Source: Patescibacteria group bacterium
GTDB lineage: Bacteria > Patescibacteriota > Gracilibacteria > BD1-5 > UBA2023
Assembly (NCBI GenBank): GCA_049293675.1
Contig: JBAQBR010000001.1
Location: 174,915 to 206,914, forward strand
Direction of reading: 5' to 3'
Length of the DNA: 32,000 nt
The first letter of the stretch is position 1, and every line of letters begins with the position of its first letter. The notes below the pieces were generated by a model that saw only the letters and a list, made by a program, of their open reading frames with translations, did no database searches and had not been told where the DNA came from. The position numbers were made by a program, and so were the translations under genes. This document shows, in pieces, positions 24,983-31,910 of the stretch.

Positions 24983-26221
24983 ATGGAAAAGAAACATATT
25001 GACGCTACTCTCGTTTTTCTCATACTTGCCCTCGTAATATTCGGGCTTATTATGATGAGCTCTGTAAGTGTGTACTCGTCCAATACTGTAACAACGAAGA
25101 TGGTTGCTCTTGGTAAACTCACAGAAGGTAACAATTATTTTTATCTCTTGAGACACATGATGTATGTGGTTATCGGGGTGGTTGCTCTTGGTATCACATC
25201 GAAGATTCCATACACTTTCCTCGAAAAATACGCGAAACATCTATTTGGAGTTACACTGATTCTTCTTATATTGGTACTTTTTGTTGGTGAAGAGTACAAT
25301 GGTGCTAAGTGATGGCTCAATATCCCGTGAGTACCATCGATTCAGCCAGTAGAATTCATGAAGATAGGAATCATCATCTTCCTTGCATACTTTGCGAAGA
25401 AAAAAAGACATGTTATCAGTAGCCTCTTTGATGGATTTATTCCGTATTTTCTGATTGTTGGAAGTGTATTCTTTCTCCTTATTCTCCAACCAGACTTCTG
25501 ATCTATACTCATTATTGCACCAGTGGTTATTGCTCTGTATTTTGTGAGTGGAGGGAGCTCTCGCTATATTGGCTTCTCTATACTGATATGTCTTATCGGC
25601 GCTGTCAGCATCTATAGCATAGGAAAGATAGACCTAAAAAATAGTGAATGAAGGAATACAAATCCCCTCAATTATATCTCCCAGAGAATTGATAATTTTA
25701 TACGAGACAACAAGGAGCTCATCGAAAAACCAAACCCAGATGGAAAGGACTATCAGACAAAACAAGGACTCATCGCTATAGGAAGTGGTGGATTCTTCTG
25801 ACTTGGATTCTGAAAATCAATACAAAAATTCTGATATCTTCCTGAAGTTCAGTGAGACTTCATATTTTCAGTTATCGTAGAAGAACTCTGATTCCTTGGT
25901 GCATGTGTACTCATAGGAATCTATCTCATGATTGCATATCGCTGATATATAATTGCCCGTTCAGTCAAGGATATATTTGCTCAATACGTTGCGTTCGGAA
26001 TCACAACACTTATCTTTGTTCAGGCAGGGATCAACATCGGAGTCAACCTCAATATCATACCACTTACAGGAGTTACTCTCCCCTTCGTGAGCTATGGATG
26101 ATCTTCCCTCCTCTCTATGATGATATGTGTCGGAATCCTCCTCTCTATCTCTCGACATCGTGAATACCGTCCACAGAAGATTACGGATATATTCTCAGCC
26201 GAGAGACGTATTGTAATCTAA
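24983..26221 (+). CDS. ftsW: SEDS-family peptidoglycan polymerase/lipid II flippase (FtsW/RodA/SpoVE)
   Basis: 412 aa; frame scanned, 11 TGAs. SIQPVEFMKIGIIIFLAYF; GSGGFF-G-LGF-G-KS..YLPEVQ-G-DFIFSVIVEEL-G-FLG; IIPLTGVTLPFVSYG-G-SSLL (TGA 26099-26101 on the invariant Gly). FtsW and RodA cannot be told apart from this sequence alone. Confidence 0.9.
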
Positions 26222-26262: not shown

Positions 26263-26532
26263 CTAGATATCCTGATGCTCTATTGCGCCATTGGCGTACT
26301 CGCCATTTTCGTCCATTGGTTGCCAGCTGATGGCATTGACTGGACACGCAGATATAGAGTCATCAACATCACATCCTTCGTAGGTATCGAGTTTTTGTAC
26401 ACGAGAGAGTCCGTTGTCATCGAGTTCAAAAACGGTTCCAGATATAGCAGTACAAGCACTACAACCAATACACGTTGAGTTAACGTGTGGTTTTCGGAGC
26501 TTGGCGAGTTGTTCGGGAGTAAGGAGAGACAT
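26263..26532 (-). CDS. small ferredoxin (single Fe-S cluster)
   Basis: 89 aa, with CIGCSACTA ... SACPVNAI cluster ligands. Genuine TAG stop. Confidence 0.8.
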   Translation of the reverse strand: MSLLTPEQLAKLRKPHVNSTCIGCSACTAISGTVFELDDNGLSRVQKLDTYEGCDVDDSISACPVNAISWQPMDENGEYANGAIEHQDI

Positions 26533-26684: not shown

Positions 26685-27977
26685 ATGAAAATTTCTCTTA
26701 AAAATATCTCTGTTTTTGATATCTGTTTTCGAATACTACTTATCTTGCTTCCTTTTACTACCATACTCTCGATATGGATGAAGCAAAAATTTGGACTTGG
26801 AGGTTTTGGTTTTTATAAAGAAGGACTCCTAGCTCTCATGTTCCTCTCTGTTGCTTGGTATCACGTACGTGGTAAGCTCAAGATACAGTGGTCATGGCTT
26901 GATGGACTCATCCTCGCATATATTGTGACGATGATTCTTGTGAGCTTTTTTACCACTGGAATTCCTGGGATTATCTATGGCGGTAGATATGATTTTAGTT
27001 TTCTCCTCGCCTTCTGGATACTCTATCATGGCTCAACACTCCTCTCTGGACATGTGAGTTATTATCTCAAGATATTTCTTATCTCTGGAGGTATTATGTT
27101 GTTCCTCTCAGGACTCCTAAAGTGGCCACTCTCAGAAGATATACTCCTATGGTTCGGATACTGTGGTAATCCCTCTAACTGGCAGGCCTGTGACGGTGTT
27201 CCACCAATATTTCATGGGATAGATGGGGCCAATGTGCGTAGATTCCAGTGACTCCTCGATGGACCTAATACTATGTGAGCCTTCCTCATACTATTCTCTG
27301 GTATATTTGCATATTATATGCGTATGAAGCGAGAGTGGTACTTCGTGACAGGGATCATAATGATCGGACTCCTCATGATGATTGTCTATACATACTCTCG
27401 CAGTGCACTCCTCGGAGCACTCTGAGGCATAGGTGTTGCCGTAATATGGAGCATCAGGCCACTCTATAAAAAATACAAAAAACAATTCTTGACGATGATT
27501 GTAATAGGGATAAGTATCATGGGAATTCTTGGGATAAAATACGCAGACAGTGCTGGAGCAATACTCTGAAGGGCTGGGTCAACCAAGTGACACTTCGAGC
27601 GTATGCTTACCAGTATCGAGCGCTTCCAGGAGCATCCTATGGGTCAGTGACTCGCAAGTTCTGGACCTGCATATAGATATATCATAGATGTGGATGCGAG
27701 CAATATGGAAGAAAAAGATAAGTTCTATATCCCCGAAAGTTGGTATATCCAACAATTTGTCGAGTGAGGCGTCATAGGAGGTGTGCTTTTTCTCGCCATC
27801 ATGCTTCTGTTGTTCATTGCTCTCGTTGCCAAAAGTCCTATTCTCGGAGGGATGTTCGTGGGAGTTGGTATTATGAATCTTTTTCTCCATACGTTTGAGT
27901 CAAGTATCCTCGTGCTCCCTCTCTTCATGCTCATCGGACTCCTCCTGGGGGAAAAGAGGAGAAGCCATAAACAATAA
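26685..27977 (+). CDS. O-antigen ligase/polymerase (Wzy_C)-family integral membrane protein
   Basis: 430 aa; frame scanned, 7 TGAs. Ten or more TM segments. YTYSRSALLGAL-G-GIGVAVIW and -G-HFERMLTSIERFQEHPMGQ-G-LASSGPAY resemble the Wzy_C loop region. TAA stop at 27975-27977. Confidence 0.8.
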
Positions 27978-27982
27978 TCCCT

Positions 27983-29089
27983 GTGATAAAAATCCTCTTC
28001 GCATCCCGTCTCGTCCATGAAAAGTGAGTCGATATACTCATAGATTGTATAGAGTCTTTTGATCACGATGCTACACTAAAAGAGCAAATTGAGTGGCATA
28101 TATGTTCTGATGGTGATGCTCGAGAGACTATAATAGAACTCACAAAAAAATATAAAAACGTCACATACTATAGACGACTCTCTCAGGATAAGCTCCAAGA
28201 ACTCTATAAGCAAGTAGACATCCTCTTCATGCCGTCACGATTCCTTGAGACCTTCGGCCTCACGGCACTCGAGGCACTCACGAGTGGTACTCCTGTCTGC
28301 GCGCCAGCGAAGTGAGGTCTTCGTCCTTTTGTCACACTCGAGCTCACACTGGATGAATCACGTCCAGTAGAGTCCTTCCGTGAGATACTAGAAGAAAAAC
28401 TCCGATGAGAAACATGGGAACTTCCTGATATTCGGAACTTCAGTGAAAAAAATTGGAACAATAAACTCTCAGAGTTATTTGAATCAAGTAGCAATATCTT
28501 GATAGTACACGACTATGAGGAAAAAATAGGCTGAGCAGAGTACTATATCGAACTCGTGATAGAGTCACTTCGGAATCTATGAAAAAATGTGTCTTTTTAC
28601 GGATACAGAGGACAGACGACAGTATGGAAGAGGCGCATTATGTTCGTACTTTCTATATTTGCATTCTGGCGAGGTATCGCACTCTACAAGACACTCGAAG
28701 AGAGACAAATAGATACTATATGGATGCATTCAGTACTCAGATATATCGGACCTTGGTGAGTACTTGCCATAAGACTCTATAAGAGAAAACAAAAGATATA
28801 TCTCTCACACCATGATATCGGACTTCTTGCGGCTTTTCCTCAGGATATCACAGAAGAATCATCTATTCCGGTGGGTTCATCTCTTCAGGAATTTATCCCT
28901 GATACGAGCATGACAAAAAAGATCATCAGCGTAGGAAAATATCTCTACGTAAGAATTATCATTGCTCTATTACCAACAGAAACAACTCATATCATATTTG
29001 CACCGTTTCTTGAGGCGAATATCAGAGGACAATTCAGAAAAGATACAAAAATAGATACTTTCCCCCATAAGGCTATCGTCCGAACATAG
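27983..29089 (+). CDS. GT-B (GT4/group 1) glycosyltransferase with inverted domain order (C-terminal-type half first, N-terminal-type half second)
   Basis: 368 aa from GTG 27983 (5 nt after the preceding stop); frame scanned, 7 TGAs. Residues 1-115 are ILFASRLVHEKGVDILIDCI...DILFMPSRFLETFGLTALEALTSGTPVCAPAK-G-GL, the donor-binding C-terminal half. Residues about 170-368 are NILIVHDYEEKIG-G-AEYYIELVIESLRNL-G-KNVSFYGY...IDTIWMHSV...IYLSHHDIGL, the N-terminal-type half. TAG stop at 29087-29089. Confidence 0.8.
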
Positions 29090-30089
29090 TCTTGAGAAGG
29101 AGGATAAATCTCCCTTTTGGCGAGAGGGATATACAGAGTTTCGGTGAGAGCTTGACGAGATAGCCTCCGAACTTTTCCTTGAAGTCAGAGACTCACTTGA
29201 GGTGATCATCTGGATTATCTGGATCAGCAACTCAGAGGAAATCATAATATGGAATATTTTTCTTCTTGGCTTCCTGTATTGCGTGCCACTGGAGGAGGTA
29301 TGAACCCATGCGCTTACGATCTTCCTTGTCTGATGACGATGCACCATAGTAGTATATCGCACGAGCAGGCGTGAAGACGAATATACCTGCAACAATAGCA
29401 CGGCCTTCTGCCATACCGAAGTAGAGTCCACATCCATACTGAGCATATATCTCACGAAGGAATACCTCATAATATGCACGACTATTCCCTGCGAATCCAT
29501 CACGCGCAAGGGTATCTCCGAGAAGTCACATCCAGATATCGATATTTTCTTCTGTTAGGGGAACTGACTCAATAGTCACTCACCGCTTGACGGCGAGATT
29601 GATATGATACCTCCCCTTCTCTCGCATCTGTGCGAATATCTCATCTGGGGTTCCAGAGAGGTCAACTACGCGGTTGTATGGCGTGAGGAATTCCTTGTAC
29701 ACACGATTTCCACTTCCCTTGAGGAGGAGCATGAGAGGATTCTTTTTCTTATCAACTCAGAGTCCAGAGGCAATCATCCCAGTATCCTCGATTGGCTCAA
29801 CTTGGAGGAGAACGATTCCTTTTTTTCCTAGCTCCACCTTCAAGGCATCTATACAGAGGGTAAAATCAGACTGAATCTGAACAGTATTGGGTCCAAGAAC
29901 AAATGCTCCAAGCATCCCAAGCTTGAGCGTACGCACCTCCACCAAGAGAAAGGTTCCCTCTGTATTACCAAAATAAAATACCTCCTCTGCCTGATGGGAG
30001 TCTTCGAGTATGCGCTTCCAAGTATGTGACTGCCAGAATGAGAGCCCAGAATCATCGATAGACTCAGGCGGGAGAAAACTATATAACAT
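29073..30089 (-). CDS. FemAB-family peptidoglycan interpeptide-bridge aminoacyltransferase
   Basis: 338 aa; frame scanned and joined across 5 TGAs. ...GRYHINLAVKR-G-V...AIVAGIFVFTPARAIYYYGASSSDKEDRKRMGSYLLQWHAIQEAKKKNIPYYDFL-G-VADP..LK-G-VSDFKEKFGG. TAG stop at 29075-29073. It overlaps the convergent GT gene by 17 nt. Confidence 0.85.
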
Positions 30090-30183: not shown

Positions 30184-30588
30184 ATGGGTTCAATCTCATT
30201 TCCTAGCTCCTATTTTCTATCTCTTTCCACTATGCTCACGCAACTCGAAGTCAAAAAATCTAGTACCAATACAGGCGTAAAAATCTTCTCTTTCCATGGA
30301 GAACTCGATGAGACCAATGTTGACACAACTTTCCCGAATATCATCGCTGATATCGGTGATTTTACTGGTGCTCGTATCCTCTTCAACCTCGTTGAACTCA
30401 AGTATCTCAACAGTAAATCTATCGGATATATTGCTGACATAGCTCAACGCACTGAAGACGGAGGTGGCAAGTTCGCACTCTCCAATATCGGTACAGAAGT
30501 CCGCGATACGCTCGACCTCGTGGGTATTACTTCTATTGTTCCAGTGTTTGATGCTGAAGATGTTGCTCTCACAGAGTTGTCAAAATAA
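30184..30588 (+). CDS. STAS-domain protein (anti-sigma-factor antagonist, SpoIIAA-like)
   Basis: 134 aa from ATG 30184. An internal ATG at 30232 would give a canonical 118-aa STAS protein starting MLTQLEVKK. FSFHGELDETNV...ARILFNLVELKYLNSKSIGYI...GGKFALSNIGTEVRDTLDLVGI. TAA stop. Confidence 0.8.
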   Translation: MGSISFPSSYFLSLSTMLTQLEVKKSSTNTGVKIFSFHGELDETNVDTTFPNIIADIGDFTGARILFNLVELKYLNSKSIGYIADIAQRTEDGGGKFALSNIGTEVRDTLDLVGITSIVPVFDAEDVALTELSK

Positions 30589-30647: not shown

Positions 30648-31910
30648 ATGACAGTTTTTTTTCAAACCATCGATAGATCAGAAAGTGTACGAAACACTCC
30701 TGAGAAACCATCTCCATCTATACAAGAACAACTTGCTACTCTACGTGCAGAACTAGAAAAAAAGCCAGTAAAAAATATATACGAGCGTAAGGAAATACAG
30801 AGAAAGATTAAGCGACTCGAGCGACTCAACTCTGTGATGGAGTGAAAAAATATAGACGAGAAAAATCAGAAAGATGTTGCAGCTATACTCAAGGGAAAAA
30901 GCGCGGATACTATCAAAAACTCTGATATCCTCACTCTCCGTAAGAAAGGTGTAGATATAGCTAACCTCACTCTCGTAGACGAGAAAAATCCCGAAAAAGA
31001 AATCAAATCCTCTGAGATGGCCGTAGGAGAGAGTTTTGTTGTGAACTTTGGAAGCAATACCTCACTCCGAGATAGGACTGGAGCTGGAGATATCCTCCCG
31101 CCAAATATCAAAAATATTACAATTAATGGTGTTCCCTGTGAGAGAAGAAATACTCCCCGTCCAGGATATTATAATGAAAGATGAAAGTATCAGCCAGTAT
31201 ACGATGGATACAAAATTACAATCGTAGCATTGGGCACAACAACAGAAGAAGATACCAAGGCAAATGAGAGACAGTGGAAGAGAGAAAGACTAGAGGATAT
31301 GATACTTAATGAAGATAAGCCTCTAACAAACATACAAGACGATCTGGATTTAAAAGATGGCATTGAGGAATATAAAAATCGTTCAGAAAGAATAACTAAA
31401 TCTTTTACCCGTTGAGTGGATACTGTGCGGGCTAACTCATTTCGTCTTTCTGACTCTTGATGGGAAGGGATTGCCAATTCTGTCGGACTCTCATCTGATA
31501 AGATAAGCAATGTAAAAGCAATTATGTCTGCAATTGGTGAACACGAAAGCAACTCAAATTACCAAGCAATGGGACAGGTCTTACCAAGTGGTTCTCATGT
31601 ATGAACTGCCGCAATTTGAAGATACCAAGTAATGCCAAAGAATTGGGTTAGTTGGTCTGAGATATATTTTTGAGAACAACTCGAACCAACAGCTGAAAAT
31701 CAAGATAAAGTTGCCTTTGCAAGAATGTCTGAATATTATCTAAAGTACTCTCAGCGTTATGGAGATGATGAAGAATCAATATTTAGAGAAATTGCATGAG
31801 ACTGGTATGGAAGAGGTTCTGCGCAAATTGCATGACACCCAAACACATGAGGATACCAGTGATCTGTACTTGCTATATATAGGAGAATTAGTGATGCTAA
31901 TCAAGCCTAA
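30648..31910 (+). CDS. protein with N-terminal coiled/charged region and C-terminal lysozyme-like (lambda-R/GH104-type lytic transglycosylase) domain
   Basis: 420 aa; frame scanned, 11 TGAs, TAA stop at 31908-31910. C-terminal AIGEHESNSNYQAMG...SHV-G-TAAI-G-RYQVMPKNWVSWSEIYF-G-EQLEPTAENQDKVAFARMSEYY resembles the SEG...STGAGRYQLL..WW......F.P..QD.VA pattern of lambda endolysin R as I recall it. No signal peptide or TM segment seen. Confidence 0.75.

What the first reader, a model, noticed from the sequence alone, without database searches (positions are those of the whole stretch)
27983..29089. GT-B glycosyltransferase with its two Rossmann halves in swapped order (possible circular permutation)
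The single 368-aa ORF begins with what is normally the C-terminal, donor-binding half of a GT4 enzyme: ILFASRLVHEKGVDIL...DILFMPSRFLETFGLTALEALTSGTPVCAPAKGGL. It then continues, with no stop in code 25, into a textbook N-terminal half: NILIVHDYEEKIGGAEYYIELVIESLRNLGKNV...IYLSHHDIGL. It ends where a normal enzyme would enter the C-terminal half. Joining the C-terminus back to the N-terminus recreates the canonical order.

This could be a circularly permuted but functional GT-B. It could be the remnant of a tandem GT duplication that lost both outer halves. It could also be a misassembly across tandem paralogues. The gene sits between a Wzy-like protein and a FemAB gene, so it probably acts on an envelope polymer.
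Basis: partly seen in the sequence, partly recalled or inferred. Interest (0 to 1): 0.65.

Follow-up and report, generated by a model that had tools for sequence, protein, structure and literature searches.

The report
Naturally circularly permuted GT4 glycosyltransferase
This gene encodes an ordinary-looking sugar-transferring enzyme whose two halves are joined in the reverse of the usual order; the arrangement is real, conserved and under selection across a whole group of uncultured bacteria that read TGA as glycine, and an unpermuted sister family exists in the same kind of bacteria.

Summary
ORF 27983-29089 (+) is open only under genetic code 25. Pfam places a complete Glycos_transf_1 (donor-binding, normally C-terminal) domain at aa 3-118. 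A Glyco_transf_4 (normally N-terminal) domain follows at aa 182-280. In several homologues the latter passes Pfam's threshold over its full length, always second.

It is not a misassembly or a decaying remnant. About 100 near-full-length homologues (23-98% identity) from independent assemblies have the same order. That corresponds to 169 representative clusters at 50% identity with E <= 1e-30. dN/dS is 0.15-0.19 in both halves. Donor-binding residues R9/K14/E89 and the N-domain GG loop are invariant. AlphaFold gives pLDDT 93.8 and pTM 0.88.

Canonical GT4 proteins align continuously to the protein concatenated with itself. A canonical-order sister clade of 24 clusters, also code 25, shares the family-specific motifs.

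In Gracilibacteria the gene always follows a Wzy_C gene in an FtsW-ferredoxin-Wzy-GT cluster, so an envelope-glycan role is likely but unproven.

The only precedent I found is the reverse-order Alg13-Alg14 fusion in Amoebozoa, a different GT-B branch. This is a new variant of a known kind, of moderate interest.

The parts
27983..29089 (+). Complete gene for the permuted GT4-type glycosyltransferase (368 aa under code 25; GTG start, TAG stop; six TGA = Gly codons).
   Evidence: Database copy P0001 is identical except for W at the six TGA positions.
27983..28486 (+). First half, aa 1-168. This is the Glycos_transf_1 Rossmann domain (normally C-terminal, nucleotide-sugar binding) plus the two helices that end a canonical GT-B (H128-140, H155-165).
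   Evidence: Pfam. The PDB profile search maps aa 7-~170 to P. abyssi GlgA 252-412/439 and PimB' 201-337/381. Foldseek superposes about 150 aa at 2.1-2.5 A on PaGS, and at 2.8-3.0 A on MshA and PimA.
28004..28027 (+). S8-R9-L10-V11-H12-E13-K14-G15, the 'GRLxxEKG' phosphate-binding motif. G15 is encoded by TGA.
   Evidence: R9, E13, K14 and G15 are invariant in 25 G- and S-type sequences.
28247..28273 (+). E89-x7-E97, the GT4 'EX7E' motif inside MPSRFLETFGLTALEAL.
   Evidence: E89 is invariant in all members. E97 is invariant in the Gracilibacteria type only and is T, N or D in the four SR1-type sequences printed in full.
28478..28492 (+). Short junction (aa 166-170, ESSSN) joining the old C-terminal helix to the old N-terminal strand beta1.
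   Evidence: AF2 secondary structure shows H155-165 followed by E171-178. The doubled-sequence alignment runs across this point.
28493..29086 (+). Second half, aa 171-368. This is the Glyco_transf_4-type Rossmann domain (normally N-terminal, acceptor side). It ends at the position of the canonical inter-domain linker.
   Evidence: Pfam. The half-2 HMM hits residues 2-~90 of about 14 canonical outgroup GT4s and residues 2-197 of canonical-order P0227 at 116 bits. The order of secondary-structure elements is identical to the N-domain of the canonical model.
28526..28540 (+). I182-G183-G184-A185-E186, the glycine-rich loop after beta1 of the N-domain. G184 is encoded by TGA.
   Evidence: G183, G184 and E186 are invariant.
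28808..28816 (+). H276-H277-D278, a family-specific conserved motif in the N-domain.
   Evidence: H277 is invariant and D278 nearly invariant. The canonical-order sister clade also has it, as 'YHD'.
29060..29068 (+). F360-P361-H362, a C-terminal motif at the position of the canonical 'PNG' hinge motif. The new C-terminus follows six residues later.
   Evidence: H362 is invariant. In canonical-order P0227, 'LPHF' is followed by the linker and then the C-domain.
26685..27977 (+). Upstream Wzy_C (O-antigen ligase/polymerase family) membrane-protein gene. It ends five bases before the GT start codon and is the likely functional partner.
   Evidence: Pfam. It lies immediately upstream of the GT in every Gracilibacteria-type locus examined.
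26263..26532 (-). Small 4Fe-4S ferredoxin gene, conserved between FtsW and Wzy.
   Evidence: Pfam. Conserved at 48-83% identity in the loci.
24983..26221 (+). FtsW/RodA (SEDS) gene, the conserved first member of the FtsW-Fer4-Wzy-GT cluster.
   Evidence: Pfam, (E 3.4e-91). Synteny.
29073..30089 (-). FemAB-family gene, convergent with the GT gene. Their 3' ends overlap by 17 nt. It is a neighbour only in close relatives.
   Evidence: Pfam. Present downstream in L002, L029, L032, L085 and L086 only.

Best explanation
The gene encodes a functional, naturally circularly permuted GT-B glycosyltransferase of the GT4 (Glycos_transf_1 / Glyco_transf_4) type.

Compared with a normal GT4, the chain is cut at the inter-domain hinge. 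The new N-terminus sits just before the 'GRLxxEKG' strand, and the new C-terminus sits just after the 'FPH' (= 'PNG') motif. The old ends are joined: the last C-terminal helix runs through about five residues (ESSSN) straight into strand beta1 of the old N-domain. The two Rossmann domains are therefore still connected, but by one tether instead of the usual two crossings.

Shown: the swapped order, its conservation across code-25 bacteria (Gracilibacteria and SR1/Absconditabacteria-type genomes), purifying selection on both halves, retention of the nucleotide-sugar-binding residues, and the existence of a canonical-order sister clade in code-25 genomes.

Inferred: the protein is a cytoplasmic, probably retaining, NDP-sugar-dependent transferase. 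In Gracilibacteria it probably builds or decorates a lipid-linked or membrane-associated glycan that the adjacent, probably co-transcribed Wzy_C-family protein then polymerises or ligates in the cell envelope. The permutation probably arose either by tandem duplication, in-frame fusion and loss of the outer halves, or by gene fission and re-fusion.

My confidence is about 0.9 that it is a real, selected, permuted GT-B. It is about 0.75 that it is catalytically active as a glycosyltransferase. It is about 0.4 for the specific Wzy-coupled envelope-glycan role.
For: Domain order: for the window protein; Glycos_transf_1 in 82/82 members, Glyco_transf_4 in 29/82; Glyco_transf_4 above cut-off, up to profile 1-169/170, always second.

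Permutation test: cyanobacterial canonical GT4 (L047) residues 214-391 match GT 4-171 (E 1e-16), and residues 3-112 match GT 172-273 (E 1e-3). A single continuous alignment of residues 3-413 runs onto positions 172-565 of the doubled sequence. Half-profiles hit the opposite ends of about 14 canonical outgroup proteins. Canonical-order code-25 protein P0227 matches the second-half profile at residues 2-197 (116 bits, E 9e-38) and the first-half profile at 208-362 (E 6e-18). It aligns continuously to doubled permuted sequences at E down to 1e-43.

Not an artefact: about 100 collinear homologues from independent assemblies; collinear matches at 23-67% identity in about 45 species-representative genomes; 169 representative clusters with E <= 1e-30; no DNA repeats.

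Selection: dN/dS is 0.158, 0.159 and 0.180 for half 1, and 0.158, 0.163 and 0.176 for half 2, against three relatives. There are 28 invariant residues spread over both halves, including R9, K14, E89, G183, G184, H277 and H362.

Structure: AF2 gives pLDDT 93.8 and pTM 0.88, with two beta-alpha-beta domains. The C-domain superposes on PaGS at 2.1-2.5 A and on MshA and PimA at 2.8-3.0 A. The canonical-order relative's model aligns end to end with MshA (TM 0.63/0.65), PimA (TMt 0.67), GlgM, BshA and PglA.

Context: FtsW(+)-Fer4(-)-Wzy(+)-GT(+) is found in all Gracilibacteria-type loci with enough flank. The Wzy-GT gap is small or the genes overlap.
Against: The N-domain match in the window protein itself is below Pfam's cut-off (19.5 vs 28.5 bits). 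The second-half profile finds no solved N-domain by sequence and nothing against single canonical sequences with hhalign.

I could not inspect model coordinates or run a permutation-aware superposition. The claim that the halves pack into a normal GT-B cleft therefore rests on pTM 0.88 and the order of secondary-structure elements only. The model was also built from P0001, which carries W instead of G at six positions.

The second Glu of EX7E is not conserved in the SR1-type members read in full.

No enzymatic or genetic data exist. Donor, acceptor and stereochemistry are unknown. The Wzy linkage is absent from SR1-type members (trmD neighbour) and from the canonical-order clade (PBP1A or LysM/CHAP/Dus neighbours).
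Confidence: 0.85

Rival explanations
1. Assembly artefact: two tandem paralogous GT4 genes were collapsed or mis-joined, so that the C-half of one appears fused to the N-half of the next.
For: Nothing positive. It is conceivable a priori for short-read metagenome assemblies.
Against: The identical architecture appears in about 100 homologues at 23-98% identity from independent samples and assemblers, on contigs up to 1.1 Mb and in a record titled 'complete genome'. The flanks are tight: the Wzy stop is five bases upstream and FemAB overlaps the 3' end. There are no repeats. The two halves share no DNA similarity that could cause a collapse.
Confidence: 0.01
2. Non-functional remnant: a tandem duplication or fusion lost both outer halves, leaving a decaying ORF.
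For: The duplication-plus-truncation route is a standard way to generate permutations, so such a remnant could exist transiently.
Against: dN/dS is about 0.16-0.18 in each half. There are 28 invariant residues over both halves across sequences as low as 23% identical. The ORF is intact in all lineages. AF2 confidence is very high.
Confidence: 0.02
3. The protein is folded and selected but is not an active transferase. It could be, for example, a nucleotide-sugar-binding regulatory or scaffolding subunit for the Wzy_C or FtsW machinery. The hinge cut would then have disabled the open-closed motion needed for catalysis.
For: The second Glu of EX7E is lost in SR1-type members. The N-domain is strongly diverged from solved GT4 N-domains. 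Family-specific HHD and FPH motifs of unknown role are present.
Against: R9, K14, E89 and the GG loop are invariant. In characterised GT4 enzymes the first Glu and the Arg/Lys pair are the key donor-binding residues (general knowledge of PimA and MshA, not tested here). The canonical-order sister clade keeps the same motifs, so they are not a consequence of the permutation.
Confidence: 0.1
4. The second half is not a GT-B N-domain but an unrelated Rossmann-like domain fused behind a stand-alone Glycos_transf_1 domain. That would be a domain fusion, not a circular permutation.
For: The Pfam match in the window protein is weak. The second-half profile gets no PDB sequence hit.
Against: Glyco_transf_4 is above threshold, over up to profile 1-169/170, in several members. 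The half-2 HMM hits position 2 onward of about 14 canonical GT4 proteins. It hits the N-terminal half of canonical-order P0227 at 116 bits. The canonical relative's N-domain superposes on MshA and PimA as part of an end-to-end alignment. The order of secondary-structure elements is identical.
Confidence: 0.02

Closest known systems
Canonical retaining GT4/GT5 GT-B glycosyltransferases (MshA, PimA, BshA, GlgM, PglA, P. abyssi glycogen synthase)
   Same: It has the same two Pfam domains (Glycos_transf_1 and Glyco_transf_4). It has the same donor-binding motifs: GRLxxEKG, EX7E and the GG loop after beta1. The C-domain superposes on PaGS at about 2.1-2.5 A, and on MshA and PimA at 2.8-3.0 A. The canonical-order sister clade superposes end to end, with TM up to 0.65.
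   Different: The domain order is reversed. The chain is cut at the hinge and the old termini are fused. The N-domain is diverged, with family-specific HHD and FPH motifs. No NCBIfam equivalog reaches its cut-off, so no specific donor or acceptor can be transferred by homology.
Reverse-order Alg13-Alg14 fusion proteins of Entamoeba histolytica and Dictyostelium discoideum (MurG/Alg13-14 branch of GT-B)
   Same: These are a natural GT-B in which the C-terminal-type half precedes the N-terminal-type half in one polypeptide (PMC8993221, citing Bickel 2005 and Averbeck 2007).
   Different: They belong to a different GT-B lineage (Glyco_tran_28_C/Alg14, inverting). They are eukaryotic and are explained by a gene split followed by re-fusion of two separate subunit genes. 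Here the domains are Glycos_transf_1 and Glyco_transf_4, the hosts are CPR bacteria, and I found no split-gene intermediates.
Canonical-order code-25 sister clade (P0227, P0245-P0267; 407-425 aa)
   Same: It has the same family-specific motifs: SDY..IGGIETY, HSVSRFLG, YHDLGY, LH.VPS.FM, LPHF, FGR..EKG and PS.F.ETFGLSA. It also uses code 25, and it sits in cell-wall-type neighbourhoods (PBP1A, LysM/CHAP). With the permuted proteins it forms a 100%-bootstrap clade against outgroups.
   Different: The order is N-domain, then a roughly 20-residue linker, then C-domain. It is not next to Wzy_C in the three loci seen. Branching order relative to the two permuted groups is unresolved.
Other natural circular permutations among carbohydrate-active enzymes (GH70 glucansucrases versus GH13; MalS)
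   Same: An evolutionarily fixed circular permutation of a carbohydrate-active enzyme with the catalytic motifs retained (PMC11046441; PMC10223318, title and abstract).
   Different: Those are TIM-barrel glycoside hydrolases or transglycosylases permuted within one barrel. Here, whole Rossmann domains of a two-domain Leloir transferase are swapped.

Membership tests
GT4-type GT-B glycosyltransferase (Pfam Glycos_transf_1 + Glyco_transf_4) | Glycos_transf_1 (donor-binding Rossmann domain) match above the gathering score | tested here: met
   72.9 bits against a cut-off of 26.4, aa 3-118. Found in 82/82 family members.
GT4-type GT-B glycosyltransferase (Pfam Glycos_transf_1 + Glyco_transf_4) | Glyco_transf_4-type acceptor-side Rossmann domain | tested here: met
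   The window protein scores only 19.5 bits against 28.5. Homologues P0019, P0020, P0031, P0086 and P0096 score 32-35 bits, over up to profile 1-169/170. The half-2 HMM matches canonical N-termini. The feature is met for the family and below threshold for the window protein alone.
GT4-type GT-B glycosyltransferase (Pfam Glycos_transf_1 + Glyco_transf_4) | Donor-binding residues: Arg/Lys of GRLxxxKG and the first Glu of EX7E | tested here: met
   R9, K14 and E89 are invariant in 25 sequences spanning both permuted groups. E97 is invariant only in the Gracilibacteria type.
GT4-type GT-B glycosyltransferase (Pfam Glycos_transf_1 + Glyco_transf_4) | Glycine-rich loop after beta1 of the N-domain | tested here: met
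   I182-G183-G184-A185-E186. G183, G184 and E186 are invariant.
GT4-type GT-B glycosyltransferase (Pfam Glycos_transf_1 + Glyco_transf_4) | Canonical topology: N-domain first, C-domain second, C-terminal helix crossing back | tested here: not met
   The order is C-domain, then C-terminal helices, then N-domain. This is the finding. The protein works like a GT4 but is not a topologically canonical member.
GT4-type GT-B glycosyltransferase (Pfam Glycos_transf_1 + Glyco_transf_4) | Two Rossmann domains facing each other across a catalytic cleft | tested here: inconclusive
   AF2 pTM of 0.88 and the order of secondary-structure elements fit.
GT4-type GT-B glycosyltransferase (Pfam Glycos_transf_1 + Glyco_transf_4) | Glycosyl-transfer activity from a nucleotide sugar, with retention of configuration | not testable with these tools
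   Needs biochemistry.
Circularly permuted protein (relative to a canonical homologue) | Each half is homologous to the opposite half of a canonical relative, and the canonical protein aligns continuously to the query concatenated with itself | tested here: met
   (L047: E 1e-16 and 1e-3; continuous 3-413 onto 172-565). (P0227 against doubled sequences, E down to 1e-43; against the doubled window protein, 3-366 onto 172-502, E 3e-13). (about 14 outgroups).
Circularly permuted protein (relative to a canonical homologue) | The arrangement is inherited and under selection, not an assembly or annotation artefact | tested here: met
   independent assemblies; dN/dS 0.15-0.19 in both halves.
Alg13-Alg14 / MurG-type reverse-order fusion | Glyco_tran_28_C (Alg13-like) and Alg14-like domains | tested here: not met
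   Pfam reports Glycos_transf_1, Glyco_trans_1_4, GT4-conflict and Glyco_transf_4 only. The resemblance is in architecture, not in family membership.
Wzy-dependent envelope-glycan pathway component | Conserved genetic linkage to a Wzy_C-family gene | tested here: met
   A Wzy_C gene lies immediately upstream in all Gracilibacteria-type loci (and the truncated upstream gene in 74). It is absent from SR1-type loci.
Wzy-dependent envelope-glycan pathway component | Other pathway genes (initiating phosphoglycosyltransferase, flippase) and a demonstrated lipid-linked acceptor | not tested
   I did not search the window or the genomes for a Wzx-type flippase or a WbaP/WecA-type initiating transferase. 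Testing the acceptor needs experiments.

The most novel reading that the evidence does not exclude
Within the TGA=Gly bacteria, one GT4 lineage has changed chain topology at least once and possibly more than once. The NJ tree does not group the two permuted groups to the exclusion of the canonical-order clade (G+S 5%, C+S 44%). That would leave natural matched pairs of permuted and unpermuted orthologues of the same enzyme. The permuted form would be a GT-B that works with a single inter-domain tether and free ends at the hinge. It would show that the hinge linker is dispensable for GT-B catalysis, and it would give a natural system for studying domain closure and how permutations arise (duplication and truncation versus fission and fusion).
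Probability: 0.3. Interest if true: 0.65.

Novelty: new variant of a known kind. Interest (0 to 1): 0.5.

Why it matters
GT-B enzymes are among the most abundant enzyme folds, and their catalysis is thought to depend on closure of two Rossmann domains about an inter-domain hinge. A permuted version that is conserved across a whole clade, selected, and cut exactly at that hinge, with a close unpermuted sister family for comparison, is a ready-made natural experiment. It bears on what the hinge and the C-terminal cross-over helix contribute.

There is also a practical point. Public protein sets mistranslate these genes: W for G at TGA, or fragments from code-11 gene calls. Architecture-based annotation would flag the order as anomalous.

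Finally, the gene marks a strictly conserved FtsW-ferredoxin-Wzy_C-GT cluster. This is a candidate envelope-glycan module in Gracilibacteria, whose cell envelopes are essentially uncharacterised.

Tried and rejected
I used P0001, which has W at the six TGA sites, heading the same 82-sequence alignment.

2. hhalign of the whole family profile against canonical P0099 and P0102 reported only the C-domain match. The second half alone against those single sequences gave nothing.

3. The second-half profile against PDB sequences gave only one chance-level hit.

4. Foldseek on the permuted model aligned one domain only, because it aligns sequentially. Model coordinates are not exposed, so I could not run a permutation-aware superposition or inspect the cleft.

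5. L047, whose tblastn match appeared to run past the C-domain, turned out to be an ordinary canonical GT4. It became the partner for the permutation test rather than a permuted member outside the CPR.

6. I checked for a hidden upstream C-domain next to canonical-order P0227, which would indicate a C-N-C duplication intermediate. There is none: in-frame stops lie just upstream of its ATG.

7. Half-length hits (P0240, P0197, P0241, P0226, P0135) were examined as possible split genes. They are contig-edge or code-11 fragments.

8. The listing of cluster members returned no organism names, so the taxonomy of the canonical-order clade beyond 'uses code 25' is unknown.

9. The first tree attempt timed out. 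The numpy NJ tree resolves the family as a whole but not the order of the three groups.

10. The Alg13/Alg14 family was considered and rejected as the family of membership (Pfam).
Full report
**1. What is in the sequence.**

Under table 11, the frame 27983-29089 (+) is interrupted six times. All six interruptions are TGA, and the frame ends at TAG. With TGA = Gly (code 25) it reads as one 368-aa protein. Three of the six TGA codons (15, 111, 184) fall on glycine positions that are invariant in 25 family members, and a fourth (200) on a nearly invariant one. This confirms the code independently.

The frame is closed upstream by a stop at 27968-27970. A Wzy_C gene ends at 27977, five bases before the GTG start. 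A convergent FemAB gene overlaps the 3' end by 17 nt. There is no room for lost flanking halves, and the region contains no meaningful DNA repeats.

**2. The domain order really is swapped.**

Pfam places Glycos_transf_1 at aa 3-118 (72.9 bits). It places Glyco_transf_4 at aa 182-280, but at only 19.5 bits, below the 28.5-bit cut-off. NCBIfam models match only the first about 120 residues, always to the C-terminal part of their profiles, and none reaches its cut-off.

In an 82-member alignment of homologues, Glycos_transf_1 is found in 82/82 and Glyco_transf_4 in 29/82. In five members Glyco_transf_4 passes the cut-off. It spans up to profile 1-169/170 (in P0019, P0020 and P0031) and starts at residue ~179-198, always after Glycos_transf_1.

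A profile search of PDB sequences maps aa 7-~170 onto the C-terminal domain of canonical enzymes, such as P. abyssi GlgA 252-412 of 439 and PimB' 201-337 of 381.

**3. Formal test of circular permutation.**

A canonical cyanobacterial GT4 (L047, 413 aa) matches the window protein in two pieces in swapped order. Its residues 214-391 match GT 4-171 (E 1e-16), and its residues 3-112 match GT 172-273 (E 1e-3). It also aligns in one continuous path, 3-413, to positions 172-565 of the window protein concatenated with itself.

HMMs of the two halves hit opposite ends of about 14 canonical outgroup GT4 proteins. The first half hits residues ~213-330, and the second half hits residues 2 to 38-101.

The exhaustive search of 1.84 billion representatives turned up P0227, a 409-aa canonical-order protein. 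The second-half profile matches its residues 2-197 at 116 bits (E 9e-38), and the first-half profile matches its residues 208-362 (E 6e-18). It aligns continuously to doubled permuted sequences at E down to 1e-43. Its gene is complete, has 14 in-frame TGAs, and has no C-domain hidden upstream.

It is not a one-off. Twenty-four clusters of 407-425 aa (38-51% identity, 93-100% coverage, contigs up to 88 kb) share this canonical order.

**4. It is not an artefact and not decaying.**

About 100 near-full-length collinear homologues (34-98% identity) come from NCBI, JGI, ENA and Logan. Collinear matches over query residues about 2-362 occur in about 45 species-representative genomes. These cover Gracilibacteria, records labelled Peribacteria, SR1 and Absconditabacteria, down to 23% identity. 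All of them have in-frame TGA codons. Outside this group, only the C-domain matches. The exhaustive search gives 169 clusters at E <= 1e-30.

Nei-Gojobori dN/dS against three relatives is 0.15-0.19 overall and nearly identical in the two halves: 0.158, 0.159 and 0.180 for half 1, and 0.158, 0.163 and 0.176 for half 2.

Twenty-eight residues are invariant over both permuted groups. They include R9, E13, K14 and G15 (GRLxxEKG), P84, S85 and E89 (the first Glu of EX7E), D177, G183, G184 and E186 (beta1 and the glycine loop), R253, H277, P286, K319 and H362. E97, the second Glu of EX7E, is invariant only in the Gracilibacteria type.

**5. Structure.**

AlphaFold2 with the 82-sequence alignment gives pLDDT 93.8 and pTM 0.88. 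The first half is a six-stranded beta-alpha Rossmann domain followed by helices 128-140 and 155-165. After five residues, strand 171-178 opens a second Rossmann domain. The elements of that second domain follow, one for one, the order seen in the N-domain of the canonical-order relative's model.

Foldseek aligns sequentially. It superposes only about 150 residues of the permuted model on PaGS (2.1-2.5 A), and on MshA and PimA (2.8-3.0 A), with TMq about 0.35. The canonical-order relative aligns end to end with MshA (TM 0.63/0.65), PimA (TMt 0.67), GlgM, BshA, PglA and others. A permutation predicts exactly this contrast.

Two caveats apply. The modelled sequence carries W for G at six sites. 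I also could not inspect coordinates, so the cleft geometry is inferred rather than shown.

**6. Anatomy of the permutation.**

The new N-terminus lies immediately before the strand 'ILFASRLVHEKG', which opens a canonical C-domain. The new C-terminus lies six residues after 'FPH', which aligns with the canonical hinge motif 'PNG(V)D'. Many homologues end '...FPHSxDxxIFHP', mirroring the canonical 'PNGVDxxxFxP'. The old ends are joined by 'ESSSN' between the last helix and beta1.

The enzyme therefore keeps the C-terminal cross-over connection as its only inter-domain tether and has lost the hinge linker. This follows from the alignments and the predicted secondary structure. Its consequences for domain closure are inference.

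**7. Genomic context and likely role.**

In every Gracilibacteria-type locus with enough flank, the order is FtsW/RodA (+), a small 4Fe-4S ferredoxin (-), Wzy_C (+), GT (+). The GT starts within a few to about 90 nt of the Wzy stop, or overlaps it. FemAB follows only in close relatives: L002, L029, L032, L085 and L086. SR1-type members lie next to trmD. Canonical-order members lie near a class A PBP, or near LysM/CHAP and Dus genes.

I infer a cytoplasmic NDP-sugar transferase. In Gracilibacteria it probably supplies a glycan handled by the Wzy_C-family partner. The donor, the acceptor and the product are unknown.

**8. Evolution.**

After un-permuting in silico, three groups can be compared: the Gracilibacteria-type permuted proteins (G), the SR1-type permuted proteins (S) and the canonical-order proteins (C). 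Together they form a clade against canonical outgroups with 100% bootstrap. C is monophyletic at 100%. The order among G, S and C is unresolved: G+S 5%, C+S 44%, C+G 7%.

The number and direction of topology changes therefore cannot be decided here. I found no split-gene or C-N-C intermediates.

**9. Comparison with what is known.**

The searchable literature holds no description of a natural GT4-type permutation. The closest precedent is the reverse-order Alg13-Alg14 fusion of Entamoeba and Dictyostelium, which is attributed to gene split and re-fusion (PMC8993221). That is a different GT-B lineage, and Pfam shows no Glyco_tran_28_C or Alg14 domain here. Circular permutation is also known among glycoside hydrolases, for example GH70 against GH13 (PMC11046441).

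**10. Verdict.**

It is a new variant of a known kind: a clade-wide, selected, circularly permuted GT4-type GT-B enzyme with an unpermuted sister family. Interest is moderate, at 0.5. It would mainly attract people who work on glycosyltransferase mechanism, protein-topology evolution and CPR cell envelopes.

Noticed in passing
window 27983-29089 and database proteins P0001-P0098: Public protein collections mistranslate this gene family. Many copies carry W where TGA should be Gly (for example 'EKW', 'IGW'), as if translated with code 4. Several JGI entries are about 290-aa fragments starting at M83 ('MPSRFLETF...'), as expected from code-11 gene calling.
   Followed up: partly
L081 1664-2893; L082 7001-8233; L083 7001-8224; proteins P0227, P0245-P0267: A canonical-order (N-domain then C-domain) sister clade of the permuted family exists in code-25 genomes. 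It sits near a class A PBP (L083, L084), or near LysM/CHAP and Dus genes (L082). Dus(-) also directly follows the permuted GT in L001, which hints at positional correspondence.
   Followed up: partly
window 26263-26532 (-): A small 4Fe-4S ferredoxin gene on the opposite strand is wedged between FtsW and Wzy_C. It is often the best-conserved gene of the cluster (48-83% identity across loci). Its link to cell-envelope genes is unexplained.
   Followed up: partly
window 29073-29089: The GT and the convergent FemAB gene overlap by 17 nt at their 3' ends. The same overlap is seen in L085 (6091-6107) and L086 (2069-2085).
   Followed up: partly
window 30184-30588 (+) and 30648-31910 (+): A STAS-domain protein (Pfam E 3.6e-12) is followed by a 420-aa ORF with no Pfam match. 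The same pair follows FemAB in L085.
   Followed up: partly
L037, L042, L043 (SR1/Absconditabacteria-type loci): In these genomes the permuted GT lies just downstream of trmD rather than Wzy_C. In L037 and L042 a small ORF of 126-131 aa lies between them. The second Glu of EX7E is replaced by T, N or D.
   Followed up: partly
P0007, L086 (homologues), corresponding to window aa ~268-270: Some close homologues carry an insertion of about 30-50 residues in the loop after helix 257-265 of the N-domain half (408-416 aa against 368).
   Followed up: no
L003, L007, L016, L019, L040 and others: Many records titled 'Candidatus Peribacteria' carry this gene. In L040, one of these, the gene has 10 in-frame TGA codons. 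At least that genome therefore appears to use code 25, which suggests the label reflects a taxonomy mapping rather than standard-code Peribacteria.
   Followed up: partly
window, whole: G+C content varies from 0.31 to 0.48 between 1-kb windows (low at 4-5 kb, 7-8 kb and 20-21 kb; high at 16-19 kb). I did not investigate this.
   Followed up: no
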